DNA of 26,287 nt from a virus (lineage: Duplodnaviria; Heunggongvirae; Uroviricota; Caudoviricetes). Under the pieces are notes generated by a model. The model did no database searches. It worked only from the letters and a program-made list of their open reading frames with translations, and was not told the origin of the DNA. The stretch is from IMG/VR virus record IMGVR_UViG_2609460221_000003. The stretch is one strand, 5' to 3'. The translations under genes and the position numbers were made by a program. Below are positions 5,221-8,579 of this stretch, one piece after another; the stretch's first letter is position 1, and every line of letters starts with the position of its first letter.

Positions 5221-5370
5221 AAAGTGAGCCAGTCAAATGGAAGGTATCGTTAAACTCACCGGTAGTGTCAGTGGGTCGTCTGAGATGCCTGCATGAGTTA
5301 TCAGAGCCATCAGTACTTAACTGGTGGCTTTTTTTATTGTTGTCAGCTTCCGGATAACGGGAGACGGGGT

Positions 5371-5586
5371 ATGTACCAGATGGAAAAAATCACAACAGGT
5401 GTGTCATACACCACGTCAGCGGTGGGAACGGGCTACTGGTTCCTGCAGTTGCTGGACAGGGTTTCCCCGTCTCAGTGGGCGGCAATAGGCGTGCTGGGGA
5501 GTCTGCTGTTTGGGCTGCTGACATATCTGACTAACCTGTATTTCAAAATCAGAGAGGACCGTCGTAAGGCTGCACGGGGAGAGTAA
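5371..5586 (+). CDS. S: Holin, phage 21-type pinholin (class II, dual start)
   Basis: 71-aa product with two transmembrane segments and charged C-terminus ([13 protein letters not shown]); dual-start motif MYQMEK with ATGs at 5371 and 5380. Preceded by a hairpin plus T-run at about 5304-5336. Confidence 0.85.
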
Positions 5587-5590
5587 TTCA

Positions 5591-5935
5591 ATGACTCAAA
5601 ACTATGAACTGATTGTGAAAGGGATCCGCAATTTTGAGAATAAAGTTACGGTAACTTTAGCGTTACGGGACAAAAAACGCTTTGACGGTGAAATTTTTGA
5701 CCTGGACATCTCGCTGGACCGTGTTGAAGGTGCCGCGCTGGAGTTTTATGAGGCAGCAGCCAGAAGGAGCATCAGACAGGTCTTCCTGGATGTTGCTGCC
5801 GGGTTATGTGAAGGGGATGAGCAGTCGCCGGAAAAGCGCCCCGTAATTTTAGAGGCGCAGGATGTGTTGATAACCTACAGAGGAAAACTACCGGGAATAA
5901 TTACGGGTTCTCTGAAGAGTCCGCCGAAATGGTAA
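5591..5935 (+). CDS. Hypothetical protein (114 aa) between holin and endolysin
   Basis: ATG 5591 lies 4 nt after the holin stop (translational coupling), GGGGAGAG upstream; no recognisable family. Confidence 0.5.
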   Translation: MTQNYELIVKGIRNFENKVTVTLALRDKKRFDGEIFDLDISLDRVEGAALEFYEAAARRSIRQVFLDVAAGLCEGDEQSPEKRPVILEAQDVLITYRGKLPGIITGSLKSPPKW

Positions 5936-6173
5936 TTTTACCAGCATATTTTTCATCCAGTAATACAGCAAGCCGCCTGAAAGAGTCTTGTTGTTCCTGA
6001 GACCATTTGGGATTGCATGATTCAAACTGGATTGATGCCAGCGTTGATTGCATCTGTTCCCTTGGAATTGAGAATGCCAGATATGAGAAGGCGACGGTAA
6101 GGGTATTCACGTCTTCCCGAAGCCTGGAAATGCTGTCGAGCAACTCCTGTAGAGAAATGGTGTTATTGTCCAT
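5901..6173 (-). CDS. Hypothetical protein (90 aa), antisense to the lysis operon
   Basis: Minus-strand ATG at 6173 with RBS GAGGA 6 nt upstream; converges on and overlaps the 3' end of the 5591-5935 gene by 35 bp; no recognisable family. Confidence 0.4.
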   Translation of the reverse strand: MDNNTISLQELLDSISRLREDVNTLTVAFSYLAFSIPREQMQSTLASIQFESCNPKWSQEQQDSFRRLAVLLDEKYAGKITISADSSENP

Positions 6174-6278: not shown

Positions 6279-6812
6279 ATGAACGCAAAAATCAGATACG
6301 GCCTGTCGGCTGCCGTTCTGGCGCTGATTGCCGCTGGTGCGCCTGCGCCTGACATTCTCGACCAGTTTCTGGATGAAAAGGAAGGTAACCACACCACGGC
6401 ATACCGTGATGGCGCGGGTATCTGGACCATCTGCCGCGGTGCCATCCTGGTGGATGGCAAACCTGTCGTTCCGGGCATGAAGTTGTCGAAGGAAAAATGC
6501 GACCGGGTTAACGCCATTGAGCGTGATAAGGCGCTGGCATGGGTGGAGAAAAACATCAGAGTGCCATTGAGTGAACCCCAGAAAGCGGGGATCGCGTCAT
6601 TCTGTCCGTACAACATTGGCCCCGGTAAGTGTTTTCCGTCGACGTTTTATAAACGAATTAATGCAGGTGATCGCAGGGGAGCGTGTGAGGCGATTCGCTG
6701 GTGGATTAAGGACGGTGGCAGAGACTGCCGTATTCGCTCAAATAACTGTTACGGTCAGGTATCCCGTCGTGACCAGGAGAGCGCGCTAGCGTGCTGGGGA
6801 ATCGACAGATAA
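6279..6812 (+). CDS. R: SAR endolysin (lysozyme, glycoside hydrolase family 24 / T4-lysozyme-like) with N-terminal signal-anchor-release segment
   Basis: 177 aa; Gly/Ala-rich weakly hydrophobic N-terminus (GLSAAVLALIAAGAPAP) followed by the catalytic E-x8-D-x5-T pattern (EKEGNHTTAYRDGAGIWT). Pairs with a pinholin as in phage 21. Confidence 0.85.
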   Translation: MNAKIRYGLSAAVLALIAAGAPAPDILDQFLDEKEGNHTTAYRDGAGIWTICRGAILVDGKPVVPGMKLSKEKCDRVNAIERDKALAWVEKNIRVPLSEPQKAGIASFCPYNIGPGKCFPSTFYKRINAGDRRGACEAIRWWIKDGGRDCRIRSNNCYGQVSRRDQESALACWGIDR

Positions 6813-6902
6813 GCAGAATATTTTGCTAATAAATGACGTTGGCCAAGGCGGACGGATAACACGAAATCCTGCGAACTGGCAAAATGTAAGTGAATAAAAG
6901 TA

Positions 6903-6941
6903 AAAACCCCGTTTGTTGGCAGCAAGCGGGGTTTTGTTTTT
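6903..6941 (+). terminator. Intrinsic terminator downstream of endolysin
   Basis: AAAAA-CCCCG-(15-nt loop)-CGGGG followed by TTTTGTTTTT. Confidence 0.6.
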
Positions 6942-7104
6942 ATGGCAGTAAGCTATGGGAGGCTGCCTTGATTGATTTTAGCAAACTGATTAGGGAGTTG
7001 CGACTCATGATTAGTCAATTACCAAACTGGAAATTTTTGCTGGTCTGGAGCATCCCTTTTTTATGGGTAGTATCCCAGTTAATTGTGGCAATTAAGGGGT
7101 AGCT

Positions 7105-7236
7105 ATGTCAGACAAACTCATAACGCCGGCAAAGGTCCTGTGTGTGATTGTCGGTATTTCATTTTCACTAATGCTGGTTGCTCTTTTTCTGTCCCTCGCC
7201 TGGGTGATGTTGTCTTCGTCGGGGCTGCTGGGGTGA
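7105..7236 (+). CDS. Small hydrophobic peptide (43 aa, single predicted transmembrane helix)
   Basis: ATG 7105 with RBS AAGGGG 5 nt upstream; MSDKLITPAKVLCVIVGISFSLMLVALFLSLAWVMLSSSGLLG; stop overlaps the next small ORF (GTGA). Confidence 0.3.
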   Translation: MSDKLITPAKVLCVIVGISFSLMLVALFLSLAWVMLSSSGLLG

Positions 7237-7355
7237 CAGTGACTGATGACATCAGCAGAGCGCTGGCTTTTGCTATTAAGTGGGTGGCTGTTGGTATTGC
7301 TGTGTCTCCGATGCTGTATGGGCTGGCAAAACTGGTCATTGCGCTGAAATCGTGA
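7233..7355 (+). CDS. Small hydrophobic peptide (40 aa), paralog of the 7367-7453 peptide
   Basis: GTG start overlapping the upstream stop; shares the motif RA(L/M)AFAI(K/R)(W/I)VA(V/I) with the next peptide, and similarity is visible at the DNA level. Confidence 0.25.
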   Translation: MTVTDDISRALAFAIKWVAVGIAVSPMLYGLAKLVIALKS

Positions 7356-7366
7356 ACTTTAAAAAG

Positions 7367-7453
7367 ATGAGTGCTGAACTTATTCGGGCAATGGCATTTG
7401 CCATTCGTATTGTGGCCATTGCTGTTCTGGTCTGGGCAATCCGTTGGTGGTGA
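7367..7453 (+). CDS. Small hydrophobic peptide (28 aa), paralog of the 7233-7355 peptide
   Basis: ATG 7367; [28 protein letters not shown]; stop TGA sits 1 nt before the Rz start. No clear RBS. Confidence 0.25.
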
Positions 7454-7454
7454 T

Positions 7455-7922
7455 ATGAACCGTGTTCTGTGTGTGGTGATTATTGTCCTGCTGGTAGCCT
7501 GTGGTGTGCTTAGTCTGGGGCTGAATCATTACCGCGATAACGCCATCACCTACAAAGCGCAGCGCGATAAAAAAGTCAGTGAGCTGAAACTGGCGAACGC
7601 GACAATTACTGATATGCAGATACGCCAGCGTGATGTCGCTGAACTTGATGCCAGATACTCGAGGGAATTAGCCGATGCGAGAGCTGAAAATGAAACTCTG
7701 CGTGCTGATGTTGCCGCTGGTCGTAAGCGCCTGCGGATCAACGCCACCTGCTCCGGTACAGTGCGTGAAGCCACCGGCACCTCCGGCGTGGATAATGCAA
7801 CCGGCCCCCGACTGGCAGACACCGCTGAACGGGATTATTTCATCCTCAGAGAACGGTTGATGACAATGCAGAAGCAGCTGGAAGGGGCACAGGACTATAT
7901 CCGCACTCAGTGCCTGAACTAA
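7455..7922 (+). CDS. Rz: Spanin inner-membrane subunit Rz (i-spanin)
   Basis: Translation closely matches lambda Rz ([16 protein letters not shown]...[11 protein letters not shown]...[13 protein letters not shown]); N-terminal transmembrane helix. ATG 7455 chosen over the longer track ORF start at 7371. Confidence 0.9.
7675..7860 (+). CDS. Rz1: Spanin outer-membrane lipoprotein subunit Rz1 (o-spanin), embedded in the +1 frame of Rz
   Basis: 61 aa, lipobox LVVSAC, proline-rich ([26 protein letters not shown]), matching lambda Rz1; fully nested inside Rz. Confidence 0.85.
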
Positions 7923-8246
7923 GTTTTGCTGATGCGCCGTATCGTCGCTGTATTCCCTCATTAACAGAGACCGCAGCCCGACAGGGAGACTCCTCTGCGC
8001 GAGTGTGCGGGGATAATCAAAAACGATACACACCGGGGTTTACCGCGTTAACGGAGCGCGGCGTTGTCCCCTCATAGTCGCCAGTCCGGTGCGATGGTGG
8101 AAGAAACAGGACGCCTCGCAAGCCCTGTTATGTCATGTGTCTGATTTGTGATTTAAGTCGGATAATTGTCGTTGCCATTAAGCAGAGGATTGATGACCGA
8201 CAGGGCGGCATTGTTAGAATAAGACTTATTCTTATCTGTGCGGGGA

Positions 8247-8579
8247 ATGAAAATGAAAAGAAATCTTCCGTTAATTATTTTGTTGTCTTCTCTGGTTATG
8301 GGCTGTACGCAACATAAAACAGATATGCCCCGACAGTTGGTTAAGGCATTACCACAATATCCGGCCTATGCAGCGGCAAATTATATAAAGGGACGGGTTG
8401 ATGTGAGGTTTGATATTGGTGCTGATGGTACTGTCACCCGAATTGAGTTTATTCGTTCAGAGCCGCACCATCTGTTTGATGAGCAGGTTGTAAAGGCGAT
8501 GGCAAAATGGCGATTTGAGAAGGACAGGCCGTGTAAAGGCGTGAAGAAAACGTTTATCTTTAGTCCTTCTGCACCCTGA
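8247..8579 (+). CDS. TonB C-terminal-domain lipoprotein (moron)
   Basis: Signal peptide with lipobox LVMGC, then a domain aligning to the E. coli TonB C-terminal domain (PQYPAYAAANYIKGRVDVRFDIGADGTVTRIEFIRSEPHHLFDEQVVKAMAKWRFE against TonB [56 protein letters not shown], recalled). Start may be 8253. Confidence 0.75.
   Translation: MKMKRNLPLIILLSSLVMGCTQHKTDMPRQLVKALPQYPAYAAANYIKGRVDVRFDIGADGTVTRIEFIRSEPHHLFDEQVVKAMAKWRFEKDRPCKGVKKTFIFSPSAP

What the first reader, a model, noticed from the sequence alone, without database searches (positions are those of the whole stretch)
6942..7454. Cluster of three tiny hydrophobic peptide ORFs, two of them paralogous, between endolysin terminator and Rz
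R is followed by a strong terminator and then about 510 bp before Rz, whereas in lambda R and Rz are contiguous. The gap holds a 43-aa single-TM ORF with a good RBS (7105-7236), and two short ORFs (7233-7355, 7367-7453) sharing the motif RA(L/M)AFAI(K/R)(W/I)VA(V/I) at protein and DNA level, the second ending 1 nt before Rz. Small membrane peptides here could be lysis regulators (antiholin-like), membrane toxins or superinfection-exclusion factors. They could also be non-coding remnants, but the duplication argues for selection.
Basis: seen in the sequence. Interest (0 to 1): 0.5.

Follow-up and report, generated by a model that had tools for sequence, protein, structure and literature searches.

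The report
Small membrane peptides in lysis cassette
Between the cell-wall enzyme gene and the outer-membrane-disruption gene of this E. coli prophage lie four (not three) tiny, conserved membrane-peptide genes of unknown function; they are shuffled as cassettes through many enterobacterial phage lysis modules, Shiga-toxin phages included, and probably fine-tune host lysis.

Summary
After the SAR lysozyme R (6279-6812) comes a strong terminator hairpin (6903-6935), then tightly packed small ORFs that end 1 nt before Rz (7455).

All four are real genes:
- pN/pS is 0.19-0.43 in the proposed frame and lowest there.
- At least 95% of related copies are intact.
- Mosaic joints fall exactly at the ORF borders.
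- An ORF1 homologue in O157:H7 Sakai (ECs_1966) has ribosome footprints.

ORF2 and ORF3 belong to one family, but they are two diverged subfamilies brought together by recombination, not a local duplication.

The peptides occur in about 38% of complete E. coli genomes, and also in Salmonella, Yersinia, Enterobacter, Citrobacter and Klebsiella. They always sit at the endolysin-to-spanin junction, next to at least six unrelated endolysin types and four holin families. Their order and number vary.

No characterised homologue exists. No promoter was found between the terminator and the ORFs.

Best reading: these are late, Q-dependent, N-in single-pass inner-membrane peptides, translationally chained to the spanin, that act as generic accessory lysis modulators. 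The function is inferred, not shown.

The parts
5371..5586 (+). S21-type class II holin (pinholin-like, 71 aa); context, first gene of the lysis cassette
   Evidence: ORF. RefSeq product 'class II holin family protein' at the same place.
6279..6812 (+). SAR-type lysozyme R (177 aa); context
   Evidence: Pfam Phage_lysozyme, E = 1e-23. The N-terminal hydrophobic segment is rich in Gly/Ala/Ser.
6903..6945 (+). Intrinsic terminator hairpin (AAAACCCCG...CGGGGTTTT plus T-tract). It marks the 5' boundary of the shared hairpin-peptide-spanin module.
   Evidence: -25 kcal/mol, z = -4. A related hairpin precedes the peptides behind GH108, GH19 and M15 endolysins. Nucleotide similarity to the Enterobacter locus L136 starts at 6897.
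6968..7102 (+). MIDFSKLIRELRLMISQLPNWKFLLVWSIPFLWVVSQLIVAIKG
   Evidence: GGGAGG lies 5 nt upstream. phrog_6632, E = 1e-12. Homologues with a conserved N-terminus occur in Salmonella, Providencia, Citrobacter, Enterobacter and Klebsiella. pN/pS = 0.24, from two alleles only. 42 of 42 copies intact.
7105..7236 (+). ORF1: 43-aa N-in single-TMD peptide. MSDKLITPAKVLCVIVGISFSLMLVALFLSLAWVMLSSSGLLG
   Evidence: AAGGGG Shine-Dalgarno. phrog_4906, E = 4e-21. 103 clusters at 90% identity, nearly all 43 aa long. pN/pS = 0.43, against 0.80 and 1.50 in the other frames. 100 of 103 copies intact. Homologue ECs_1966/XECs191 has ribosome footprints. Homologue ORF53 is in the O104:H4 Stx2a phage P13374.
7233..7355 (+). 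ORF2: 40-aa peptide whose GTG start overlaps the ORF1 stop (GTGA). It is an N-terminally shortened member of the AFAIKWVAVGIAVSPMLYGLAKLVIALKS family; the usual form is 48-60 aa with the N-terminus (M)xKYKRILLRLTMKNG.
   Evidence: phrog_1115, phrog_3246 and phrog_4493, E = 6e-25 to 5e-17. Homologues. pN/pS = 0.19, against 0.76 and 7.6 in the other frames, with variable sites 13/5/26 by codon position. Mosaic joints at 7239 and 7355.
7367..7453 (+). ORF3: 28-aa peptide [28 protein letters not shown], of the ...IRWW subfamily of the ORF2 family. Its Shine-Dalgarno is weak. It starts 11 nt after the ORF2 stop and ends 1 nt before Rz.
   Evidence: Intermediates P0252 and P0258 link it to ORF2. pN/pS = 0.35, against 0.61 and 3.5 in the other frames, with variable sites 8/1/10. 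51 of 52 copies intact.
7455..7922 (+). Rz i-spanin (155 aa), with embedded Rz1 o-spanin at 7675-7860 (lipobox VVSAC). It is the downstream partner, translationally chained to the peptides.
   Evidence: Pfam Phage_lysis, E = 7.5e-50. ORFs.

Best explanation
**What it is (shown).** The segment 6903-7454 is a terminator hairpin followed by four tightly chained genes for very small peptides (44, 43, 40 and 28 aa). Each has one hydrophobic helix and almost no periplasmic tail, and the positive-inside rule predicts N-in topology (clearest for ORF0, ORF1 and the longer ORF2 form). The genes lead directly into the spanin gene Rz. The gaps between successive genes are 2 nt, a 4-nt overlap, 11 nt and 1 nt.

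The peptides belong to three families: ORF0, ORF1, and ORF2/ORF3. These families are exchanged gene by gene among lambdoid prophages of Enterobacterales. They always sit at the endolysin-to-spanin junction.

**How it most likely works (inferred).**
- With a terminator 25-60 nt upstream and no detectable promoter, the peptides are made only when Q-modified RNA polymerase reads through late in the lytic cycle.
- They are then translated together with the spanin and accumulate in the inner membrane.
- There they act as accessory, non-essential modulators of the lysis programme.
- They travel with unrelated holins and endolysins, so they probably act generically on the inner membrane. The effect could be on membrane energisation or on helix-helix packing that sets holin triggering, or on the inner-membrane side of the spanin step. 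A cognate-holin-specific antiholin role fits less well.

**Confidence.** That these are genuine late-operon small membrane-protein genes: about 0.9. That their role is modulation of lysis: about 0.45.
For: **Coding status**
- pN/pS is lowest in the proposed frame for all four ORFs: 0.24, 0.43, 0.19 and 0.35. The controls are R at 0.10 and Rz at 0.43.
- Intact copies: ORF0 42/42, ORF1 100/103, ORF2 114/~119, ORF3 51/52.
- ORF1 keeps its 43-aa length across about 100 clusters.
- The cytoplasmic N-terminal motifs IDFSKLIRELR and YKRILLRLTMKNG are conserved across genera.
- Nucleotide-similarity breakpoints fall at the ORF borders: 7105/7236, 7239/7355 and 7358.
- Ribo-seq signal exists for the Sakai ORF1 homologue: RCV 0.43, coverage 0.55 in LB.

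**Membrane character**
- Each peptide has one 19-aa segment with mean Kyte-Doolittle hydropathy of 1.9-2.9. The C-terminal flank is no more than 14 aa.

**Link to lysis**
- Same position in architectures A to E.
- Same position in the Stx2a phage P13374 and in Sakai prophage Sp10.
- Same position behind GH108, GH19, Peptidase_M15_4, R21-like and a further, unidentified endolysin type (142 aa, no family assigned). The holins there are Phage_holin_8 plus 3_7, 3_1 and HP1-like.
- When the ant gene is inserted, the peptides stay next to Rz. A Yersinia remnant keeps only the peptide and Rz, 1 nt apart.

**Late expression**
- Terminator directly upstream in every cassette type.
- No + strand sigma-70 match between 6935 and 7105.

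**Not essential**
- K-12 Qin has an 88%-identical R abutting its spanin gene with no peptides between them.
Against: - No experiment ties any of these peptides to lysis timing.
- There is no homology to any characterised holin, antiholin, releasin or spanin.
- The R-Rz junction also accepts evident cargo (ant, DUF3757), so position alone does not prove a lysis role.
- The Sakai homologue shows some translation in uninduced cultures. This could be spontaneous induction, or expression in the lysogen.
- The promoter scan is a crude consensus search.
- In this window ORF2 lacks the family's conserved N-terminal domain, and neither ORF2 nor ORF3 has a good Shine-Dalgarno sequence. These two copies may be weakly expressed or degenerating.
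- The IMG/VR sample was selected with an ORF2 core pattern, which biases the ORF2 intactness count.
Confidence: 0.45

Rival explanations
1. Cargo ('moron-like') genes that merely use the endolysin-spanin junction as a landing site. The peptides would serve the lysogen or the phage in a way unrelated to lysis. Examples are superinfection exclusion, blocking of a receptor or transporter, or regulation of a host inner-membrane protein, in the manner of AcrZ- or MgtS-type small proteins.
For: - The same junction holds obvious cargo: ant in Stx phages and in architecture E, and a DUF3757 gene in L132.
- GC content is somewhat lower (0.42-0.50) than in R and Rz.
- Gene-by-gene mosaicism is typical of accessory genes.
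- The Sakai homologue shows low-level translation without induction.
Against: - A terminator lies immediately upstream rather than downstream, and only 25-60 nt separate it from the first start codon. No promoter match was found there.
- The ORFs are tightly chained to Rz.
- Nothing matches PADLOC defence models.
- Position is constant across at least six cassette types, and the hairpin is shared.
Confidence: 0.2
2. Translational relay. What matters is that the ORFs are translated, which carries ribosomes from beyond the terminator hairpin to the weak Rz start by coupling. The peptide products would be largely irrelevant, innocuous hydrophobic by-products.
For: - Spacings are 2 nt, a 4-nt overlap, 11 nt and 1 nt, and ORF2 and ORF3 lack good Shine-Dalgarno sequences.
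- The ...RWW-TGA-N-ATG junction with Rz is conserved from E. coli to Yersinia.
- Where the peptides are absent, R itself overlaps the spanin start.
Against: - Amino-acid-level purifying selection with conservative replacements.
- N-terminal cytoplasmic motifs are conserved across genera.
- Peptides are retained when not adjacent to the spanin (L132).
- The RWW end also occurs 16-22 nt away from a different i-spanin.
- One ORF would suffice for coupling, yet two to four are kept.
Confidence: 0.12
3. Membrane toxins of the type I toxin-antitoxin kind (Hok-, TisB- or Ibs-like), or an abortive or addiction module kept silent by an antisense RNA.
For: - Size and hydrophobicity resemble type I toxins.
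- A weak promoter-like match on the - strand at 7111-7082 points towards the bidirectional-looking hairpin and would give an RNA antisense to ORF0.
Against: - That match scores 9/12. The number of such matches in the region (4) is below the shuffle expectation (4.7). It lies in coding sequence that is not conserved in other ORF0 loci.
- No Rfam antitoxin RNA was found, and no Hok, Ldr or other toxin family in Pfam or NCBIfam.
- There is no promoter for the ORFs themselves.
- The ORFs are embedded in, and co-oriented with, the late operon.
Confidence: 0.08
4. Non-coding spacer or decayed gene remnants whose ORFs are fortuitous.
For: - Very short ORFs with no Pfam or NCBIfam family.
- A few frameshifted copies exist.
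Against: - Frame-specific pN/pS below 0.45.
- Third-position bias in variable sites.
- At least 95% of copies intact.
- Diverged alleles (58-91% identity) keep their length.
- Ribosome footprints for a homologue.
Confidence: 0.03

Closest known systems
Phage P2 LysA, an accessory membrane protein encoded between endolysin K and the spanin genes lysB/lysC (recalled from Ziermann et al. 1994, J Bacteriol 176:4974; not re-read here)
   Same: - A non-essential membrane protein gene at the same position, between endolysin and spanin, in a late lysis operon.
- Thought to adjust lysis timing.
   Different: - LysA is about 140 aa with several TMDs and is a single gene. Here there are two to four peptides of 28-60 aa, each with one TMD, in shuffled arrays.
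- No sequence relationship was detected with any profile library. A direct comparison with LysA was not run.
Antiholins (lambda S107, S21-71, T4 RI/RIII, P1 LydB)
   Same: Small proteins of the lysis cassette that act at the inner membrane and set lysis time without being required for lysis.
   Different: - Known antiholins are specific for their cognate holin. They are either an alternative start product of the holin gene or carry a soluble holin-binding domain.
- These peptides have no soluble domain.
- They travel with four unrelated holin families.
Mu gp25 releasin (DUF2730; PMC9239132)
   Same: A membrane-tethered accessory protein of a lysis cassette that contains a SAR endolysin, as this window does.
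   Different: - There is no DUF2730 match.
- Releasin has a cytoplasmic domain.
- These peptides also accompany non-SAR endolysins: GH108, GH19 and M15.
Type I toxins and other tiny membrane peptides (TisB, Hok, Ibs, Ldr) and small membrane regulators (AcrZ, MgtS)
   Same: 20-50 aa, one hydrophobic helix, in the inner membrane.
   Different: - No antisense RNA or promoter of their own was found.
- They are embedded in a phage late operon.
- No sequence similarity was detected.
PHROG families phrog_6632, phrog_4906 and phrog_1115/4493/3246 (unknown function), and the RefSeq hypothetical proteins WP_001280935 and WP_032140280
   Same: These are the same proteins: the ORFs are already catalogued.
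   Different: - The catalogues give no function.
- They mix mis-started long forms. phrog_3246 corresponds to the 90-aa alternative-start ORF, and the RefSeq ORF2 form uses a CTG start.
- They do not record the lysis-cassette linkage or the link between the ORF2 and ORF3 families.

Membership tests
Holin / antiholin | Match to a holin family profile (Pfam Phage_holin_*, PHROG lysis category, NCBIfam) | tested here: not met
   No Pfam or NCBIfam hit at E <= 1. The PHROG hits are all 'unknown function'.
Holin / antiholin | Small membrane protein encoded in the lysis cassette | tested here: met
   One TMD each. Located between endolysin and spanin in all architectures.
Holin / antiholin | Specific pairing with one holin (dual-start product or holin-binding soluble domain) | tested here: not met
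   There is no soluble domain, as the flanks are no more than 14 aa on the periplasmic side. The same peptides occur with the S21-like holin here and with the Phage_holin_3_1, Phage_holin_8/3_7 and HP1-like holins elsewhere.
Holin / antiholin | Changes lysis timing or forms lethal membrane lesions | not testable with these tools
   Needs genetics and physiology.
Spanin (i-, o- or u-spanin) | i-spanin: an N-terminal TMD plus a periplasmic coiled-coil domain. o- or u-spanin: a lipobox Cys. | tested here: not met
   The periplasmic tails are 2-14 aa. There is no lipobox in any of the four sequences. The genuine Rz/Rz1 pair follows at 7455-7922.
Releasin (Mu gp25, DUF2730) | DUF2730 homology and a functional tie to SAR endolysins | tested here: not met
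   No Pfam hit. The peptides also accompany GH108, GH19 and Peptidase_M15_4 endolysins, which have no SAR domain.
Type I toxin-antitoxin | Small hydrophobic toxin ORF with its own promoter and a cis- or trans-encoded antisense RNA | tested here: not met
   The hydrophobic-peptide part is met. There is no Rfam antitoxin RNA, no toxin family hit and no + strand promoter. The single - strand promoter-like match is at chance level.
Moron (lysogen-expressed cargo) | Own promoter upstream and terminator downstream; expressed from the repressed prophage | tested here: inconclusive
   No promoter match was found, and the terminator is upstream, not downstream. Weak Ribo-seq and RNA-seq signal for the Sakai homologue in uninduced cultures (RPKM 30 and 12.6) cannot separate spontaneous induction from lysogenic expression.
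PHROG phrog_6632 / phrog_4906 / phrog_1115-4493-3246 (uncharacterised phage peptide families) | Significant match to the family profile | tested here: met
   ORF0 E = 1.3e-12, ORF1 E = 4.5e-21, ORF2 E = 6e-25, and ORF3 E = 3.8e-6 against phrog_4493.
P2 LysA-like accessory lysis protein | Sequence homology to LysA, with several TMDs | not tested
   No LysA sequence was compared directly. Only the shared position (between endolysin and spanin) is established. The TMD number differs: one per peptide here.

The most novel reading that the evidence does not exclude
The terminator hairpin, the tiny single-helix peptides and the spanin together form a portable 'last-step' lysis module. On this reading the peptides are an unrecognised functional class of lysis protein. 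They could be inner-membrane cofactors of spanin-mediated membrane fusion, or holin-independent triggers or brakes that act through the membrane potential. The module is used by about 40% of E. coli genomes, including Stx2 phages. Peptide number and order would then be shuffled to tune lysis, and so also toxin release.
Probability: 0.15. Interest if true: 0.75.

Novelty: new variant of a known kind. Interest (0 to 1): 0.5.

Why it matters
Lysis of Gram-negative hosts is taught as a three-step process of holin, endolysin and spanin, with a few phage-specific regulators. This work shows a widespread set of 28-60-aa membrane peptides under purifying selection. It is wedged between step 2 and step 3 in many lambdoid prophages, including the O104:H4 Stx2a phage and O157 Sakai Sp10, and nobody appears to have studied it.

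If the peptides tune lysis timing or efficiency, they affect burst size, prophage fitness and the release of Shiga toxin. They would also give a simple genetic system: four tiny genes that occur naturally in different combinations. That system could be used to study how very small membrane proteins act.

If they turn out to be inert or mere cargo, the finding is a modest annotation improvement: a fourth gene, corrected start codons, and a family link between ORF2 and ORF3.

Tried and rejected
- **Species-representative genomes.** With the ORF2 alignment, the search for related loci found nothing that tblastn confirmed. A degenerate core pattern hit only three chance matches in Clostridia. So species representatives (K-12-like E. 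coli, for example) lack the family.
- **K-12 Qin prophage** was inspected for named small proteins (ynfQ/R/S/T, ydfB). None lies between rrrQ and rzpQ, which overlap, and none is homologous.
- **Profile and structure libraries.** Pfam, NCBIfam, PADLOC, Rfam and PDB sequence searches all gave nothing.
- **Full HMM search** of 1.84 billion representatives found only 16 representatives, all close family, with no distant characterised relative.
- **Literature searches** by accession, by lysis-cassette terms and by 'between R and Rz' found no functional study.
- **Alternative gene models were rejected.**
  - The models are the 70-aa GTG ORF 6890-7102 (it runs through the terminator), the 90-aa ORF 7083-7355, the 57-aa ORF 7280-7453, and RefSeq's 51-aa CTG form of ORF2.
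  - Their extra parts lie in frames with pN/pS of 0.6-7.6 and have no counterpart in other architectures.
- **The 73-aa ORF on the - strand (7118-7339)** was rejected. It spans the ORF1-ORF2 joint, which does not exist where the gene order is swapped.
- **The - strand promoter-like site at 7111-7082** was considered as the promoter of an antisense RNA and judged a chance match.
- **Structure prediction and fold search** were not run. Single helices of 28-44 aa would give uninformative matches.
Full report
**1. What is in the sequence**

The window is the late region of an E. coli lambdoid prophage. The genes run in this order:
- an S21-type class II holin (5371-5586);
- a YdfR/DUF1327 gene (5591-5935);
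- a 90-aa gene on the minus strand (5901-6173);
- a 177-aa lysozyme R with an N-terminal SAR-like helix (6279-6812);
- Rz (7455-7922) with embedded Rz1 (7675-7860);
- a TonB_C lipoprotein gene, an HNH endonuclease gene and the terminase genes.

A strong intrinsic terminator sits at 6903-6935 and is followed by a T-tract. It has 15 pairs and folds at -25 kcal/mol, with z = -4.0 against shuffles.

- ORF1 is 7105-7236 (43 aa), with an AAGGGG Shine-Dalgarno.
- ORF2 is 7233-7355 (40 aa). Its GTG start overlaps the ORF1 stop as GTGA.
- ORF3 is 7367-7453 (28 aa). It ends 1 nt before the Rz ATG.

ORF0 is 6968-7102, with a TTG start 5 nt downstream of GGGAGG. It encodes MIDFSKLIRELRLMISQLPNWKFLLVWSIPFLWVVSQLIVAIKG and ends 2 nt before ORF1.

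**2. Are they genes?**

The segment, or parts of it, occurs in 2078 of 5426 complete E. coli genomes. The full-length arrangement occurs in 587 of them. Parts also occur in 203 phage records, mostly Stx-converting phages. RefSeq annotates ORF1 to ORF3 as hypothetical proteins, and PHROGs holds families for all four, all of unknown function.

I collected 120 IMG/VR loci with a degenerate pattern for the ORF2 core. From these I extracted 99 R-to-Rz intervals, 57 of them unique.

Pooled Nei-Gojobori pN/pS is lowest in the proposed frame for every ORF:

| ORF | proposed frame | +1 frame | +2 frame |
|---|---|---|---|
| ORF0 (two alleles only) | 0.24 | 0.84 | 2.08 |
| ORF1 | 0.43 | 0.80 | 1.50 |
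| ORF2 | 0.19 | 0.76 | 7.6 |
| ORF3 | 0.35 | 0.61 | 3.5 |

The controls are R at 0.10 and Rz at 0.43. Variable sites concentrate at third codon positions: 13/5/26 for ORF2 and 8/1/10 for ORF3.

Intact copies number 42/42 for ORF0, 100/103 for ORF1, 114 of about 119 for ORF2 and 51/52 for ORF3. The sample was selected on the ORF2 core, which biases that one count. A few frameshifted or truncated copies exist (L070, L037, L041, L077, L101/102), as expected for prophage genes.

About 100 clusters of ORF1 homologues at 62-98% identity nearly all keep the 43-aa length.

ORF0 homologues occur in Salmonella, Providencia, Citrobacter, Enterobacter and Klebsiella. They keep the N-terminus (M/V)IDFSKLIRELR, which shows that the 44-aa form is the real one rather than the 31-aa ATG form.

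There is experimental support. Hücker et al. 2017 (PMC5597208) list XECs191 among novel translated small genes of O157:H7 Sakai. In LB its RNA RPKM is 30.0, its footprint RPKM is 12.6, its RCV is 0.43 and its coverage is 0.55, and the signal is weaker in BHI. It is classed 'real' and inner membrane. XECs191 is now ECs_1966, an ORF1 homologue that lies between ant and Rz in prophage Sp10.

Non-coding remnants are therefore excluded for practical purposes.

**3. Family relations**

ORF2 and ORF3 are related. BLASTP gives E = 2e-4 directly and 8e-7 through the 38-aa form P0048, and both hit phrog_4493 and phrog_3246. The DNA similarity is weak.

A profile search of 1.84 billion representatives returned only 16 proteins, so the family is tiny. 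The hits include two intermediates:
- P0252, from Yersinia enterocolitica, has an ORF2-like N-terminus and full length but ends ...AVRWW.
- P0258 has the N-terminus MKNGL... followed by an ORF3-like helix ending ...AIRWW.

ORF2 (ending ...ALKS) and ORF3 (ending ...IRWW) are thus two subfamilies. They also occur apart from each other. Their juxtaposition here reflects cassette shuffling, not a local duplication.

The usual ORF2-type protein is 48-60 aa with a conserved basic N-terminus (M)xKYKRILLRLTMKNG. In E. coli its 60-aa start has an AGGGAG Shine-Dalgarno, and the N-terminal motif recurs in Salmonella, an unnamed enterobacterium and Yersinia. The window's ORF2 lacks this domain, and ORF3 is likewise a short form. 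Neither has a good Shine-Dalgarno, so both would depend on translational coupling.

**4. Architecture and context**

Between R and Rz the sample shows several arrangements:

| Type | Interval length | Content | Copies in the sample |
|---|---|---|---|
| A | 645 nt | ORF0-ORF1-ORF2-ORF3 (this window) | 38 |
| B | 481-495 nt | ORF2'-ORF1', order swapped | 47 |
| C | 441 nt | ORF2'-ORF3 | 3 |
| D | 704-705 nt | ORFx-ORF2''-ORFy-ORF3', with two further small TMD ORFs | 5 |
| E | 1416 nt | ant-like gene, then ORF0'-ORF1-ORF2-ORF3 | 3 |

The O104:H4 Stx2a phage P13374 and Sakai Sp10 have R-ant-ORF1-Rz.

The same peptides sit directly after unrelated endolysins in other cassettes:
- Phage_holin_8 plus Phage_holin_3_7 plus a GH108 endolysin. 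A 60-aa lipoprotein follows instead of Rz.
- An HP1/P21-like holin plus an R21-like SAR endolysin.
- A lambda-S-type holin plus a 142-aa endolysin.
- A GH19 endolysin, followed by a different i/o-spanin pair, in Enterobacter.
- A Peptidase_M15_4 endolysin.

A prophage remnant in Yersinia keeps just the peptide and Rz, 1 nt apart.

Nucleotide-similarity breakpoints coincide with the ORF borders (7105/7236, 7239/7355, 7358). This is the pattern expected when each small ORF is a functional unit.

A related terminator hairpin (AAAAACCCCG...CGGGGTTTT) precedes the first peptide behind the GH24, GH108, GH19 and M15 endolysins. Similarity to the Enterobacter locus begins at 6897. The shared unit is therefore hairpin, then peptides, then spanin.

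**5. Properties and expression logic**

Each peptide has one 19-residue segment with mean hydropathy of 1.9-2.9 and a C-terminal flank of 2-14 residues. For ORF0, ORF1 and the long ORF2 form, the positive charges lie on the N-terminal side, so the predicted topology is N-in and C-out with essentially no periplasmic domain. The helices contain small-xxx-small packing motifs, as the sequences show directly.

No sigma-70-like site was found on the + strand between the terminator and ORF1. In every cassette type only 25-60 nt separate the hairpin from the first start codon.

In lambdoid phages, late-operon terminators are overridden by Q-modified polymerase (established knowledge). The simplest reading is therefore strictly late expression, together with the spanin. 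The chain of spacings (2 nt, a 4-nt overlap, 11 nt, 1 nt) fits translational coupling through to Rz.

The peptides are not essential for this lysis system. K-12 Qin has an 88%-identical R overlapping its spanin gene directly.

**6. Most likely function, and rivals**

I favour accessory lysis modulators acting in the inner membrane (about 0.45), for these reasons:
- The position is constant across cassettes that share nothing else.
- The peptides are linked to the spanin even when cargo is inserted next to R.
- Expression is late only.
- The products are purely intramembrane.

Their independence of holin and endolysin type argues against a cognate antiholin or a releasin. It points to a generic effect, on membrane energisation or helix packing that sets triggering, or on the inner-membrane side of the spanin step. 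None of this is shown.

The rivals are:
- cargo unrelated to lysis (0.2);
- a pure translational relay to Rz (0.12), which is weakened by amino-acid-level selection and by conserved N-terminal motifs;
- type I-like toxins (0.08), for which no antisense RNA family, no toxin family and no promoter were found;
- non-coding remnants (0.03).

**7. Comparison with what is known**

There is no hit in Pfam, NCBIfam, PADLOC, Rfam or PDB sequences. No paper addressing these ORFs functionally was found.

By position, the nearest analogue is P2 LysA, a membrane protein between endolysin and spanin that affects timing. This is recalled from the literature and was not re-read. It is larger and polytopic. 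By role, the nearest analogues are antiholins and the Mu releasin (PMC9239132), but their defining features were tested here and not met.

I therefore class the finding as a new variant of a known kind, namely accessory lysis-cassette membrane proteins. The ORFs themselves are already catalogued as hypothetical proteins.

**8. Verdict**

Interest is moderate (0.5). The positives are a widespread, selected, unstudied component of a textbook system that is directly testable with simple genetics. The main limitation is that no functional evidence exists yet, and two of the four copies in this window (ORF2 and ORF3) are shortened forms whose expression is uncertain.

Noticed in passing
window 8238-8579 (+), promoter-like site 8193-8220: A 113-aa lipoprotein (lipobox LVMGC) with a TonB_C domain (Pfam E = 1e-14) lies just after Rz, the position bor occupies in lambda (recalled, not checked). 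It has its own promoter-like site, so it looks like a classical moron. PHROGs labels its family 'Rz-like spanin' (phrog_1267), which seems to be a mis-annotation by position.
   Followed up: partly
L021, L011, L035, L072, L116 (IMG/VR loci); e.g. L021 reverse strand, just after the ORF1 homologue: In the cassettes with Phage_holin_8/3_7 and a GH108 endolysin, the peptides are followed by a 60-aa Cys-rich lipoprotein instead of Rz/Rz1. Its sequence is MKRKHWTHRMPRTAAKWALVAILVPFLLVGC... (phrog_7528, unknown function). No recognisable i-spanin is present. It may be an unrecognised outer-membrane lysis factor.
   Followed up: partly
window 7442-7453; L128 3139-3150; L136 2627-2638; proteins P0252, P0258, P0269, P0271, P0273: The C-terminal motif (I/V)RWW-stop recurs on peptides of two otherwise different families (ORF0-like and ORF2/ORF3-like). 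It usually abuts the spanin start, but it also occurs 16-22 nt from a different i-spanin. It is unclear whether it reflects the spanin's translation-initiation region, recombination within the helix-coding part, or a functional membrane-interface anchor.
   Followed up: partly
window 6903-6935; L021, L136, L137 intergenic regions after the endolysin: Essentially the same terminator hairpin (AAAAACCCCG...CGGGGTTTT) follows four unrelated endolysin genes (GH24, GH108, GH19, M15). It behaves as part of the downstream peptide/spanin module rather than of the endolysin gene. A second terminator lies just upstream of the holin (5303-5331), so holin-YdfR-R is bracketed by terminators.
   Followed up: partly
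window 5901-6173 (-): A 90-aa gene on the opposite strand, between ydfR and R inside the late operon (phrog_2411, E = 1e-58, unknown function; no Pfam family). It overlaps the 3' end of ydfR by 35 nt.
   Followed up: no
L043, L028, L033 (architecture D), interval positions about 154-306 and 471-620: Two further small single-TMD ORFs (ORFx, 50 aa, phrog_12997; ORFy, 49 aa, no family) are interleaved with the ORF2 and ORF3 homologues. The N-terminus of ORFy (MIKAETT.QGAD) is shared with a Salmonella ORF2-type protein (P0050), so the peptide repertoire is larger and more chimeric than the four seen here.
   Followed up: partly
window 8685, 9408, 16746, 17698, 21776, 22068, 24397: There are single ambiguous bases (N) in the window sequence. 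None lies in the region studied.
   Followed up: no
window 7200-7355 versus RefSeq WP_042004856.1: RefSeq starts ORF2 at a CTG (7200), giving a 51-aa product that overlaps ORF1 by 37 nt. The extra 11 residues have no counterpart in other family members and lie in ORF1's coding sequence. The GTG at 7233 is the better start.
   Followed up: yes
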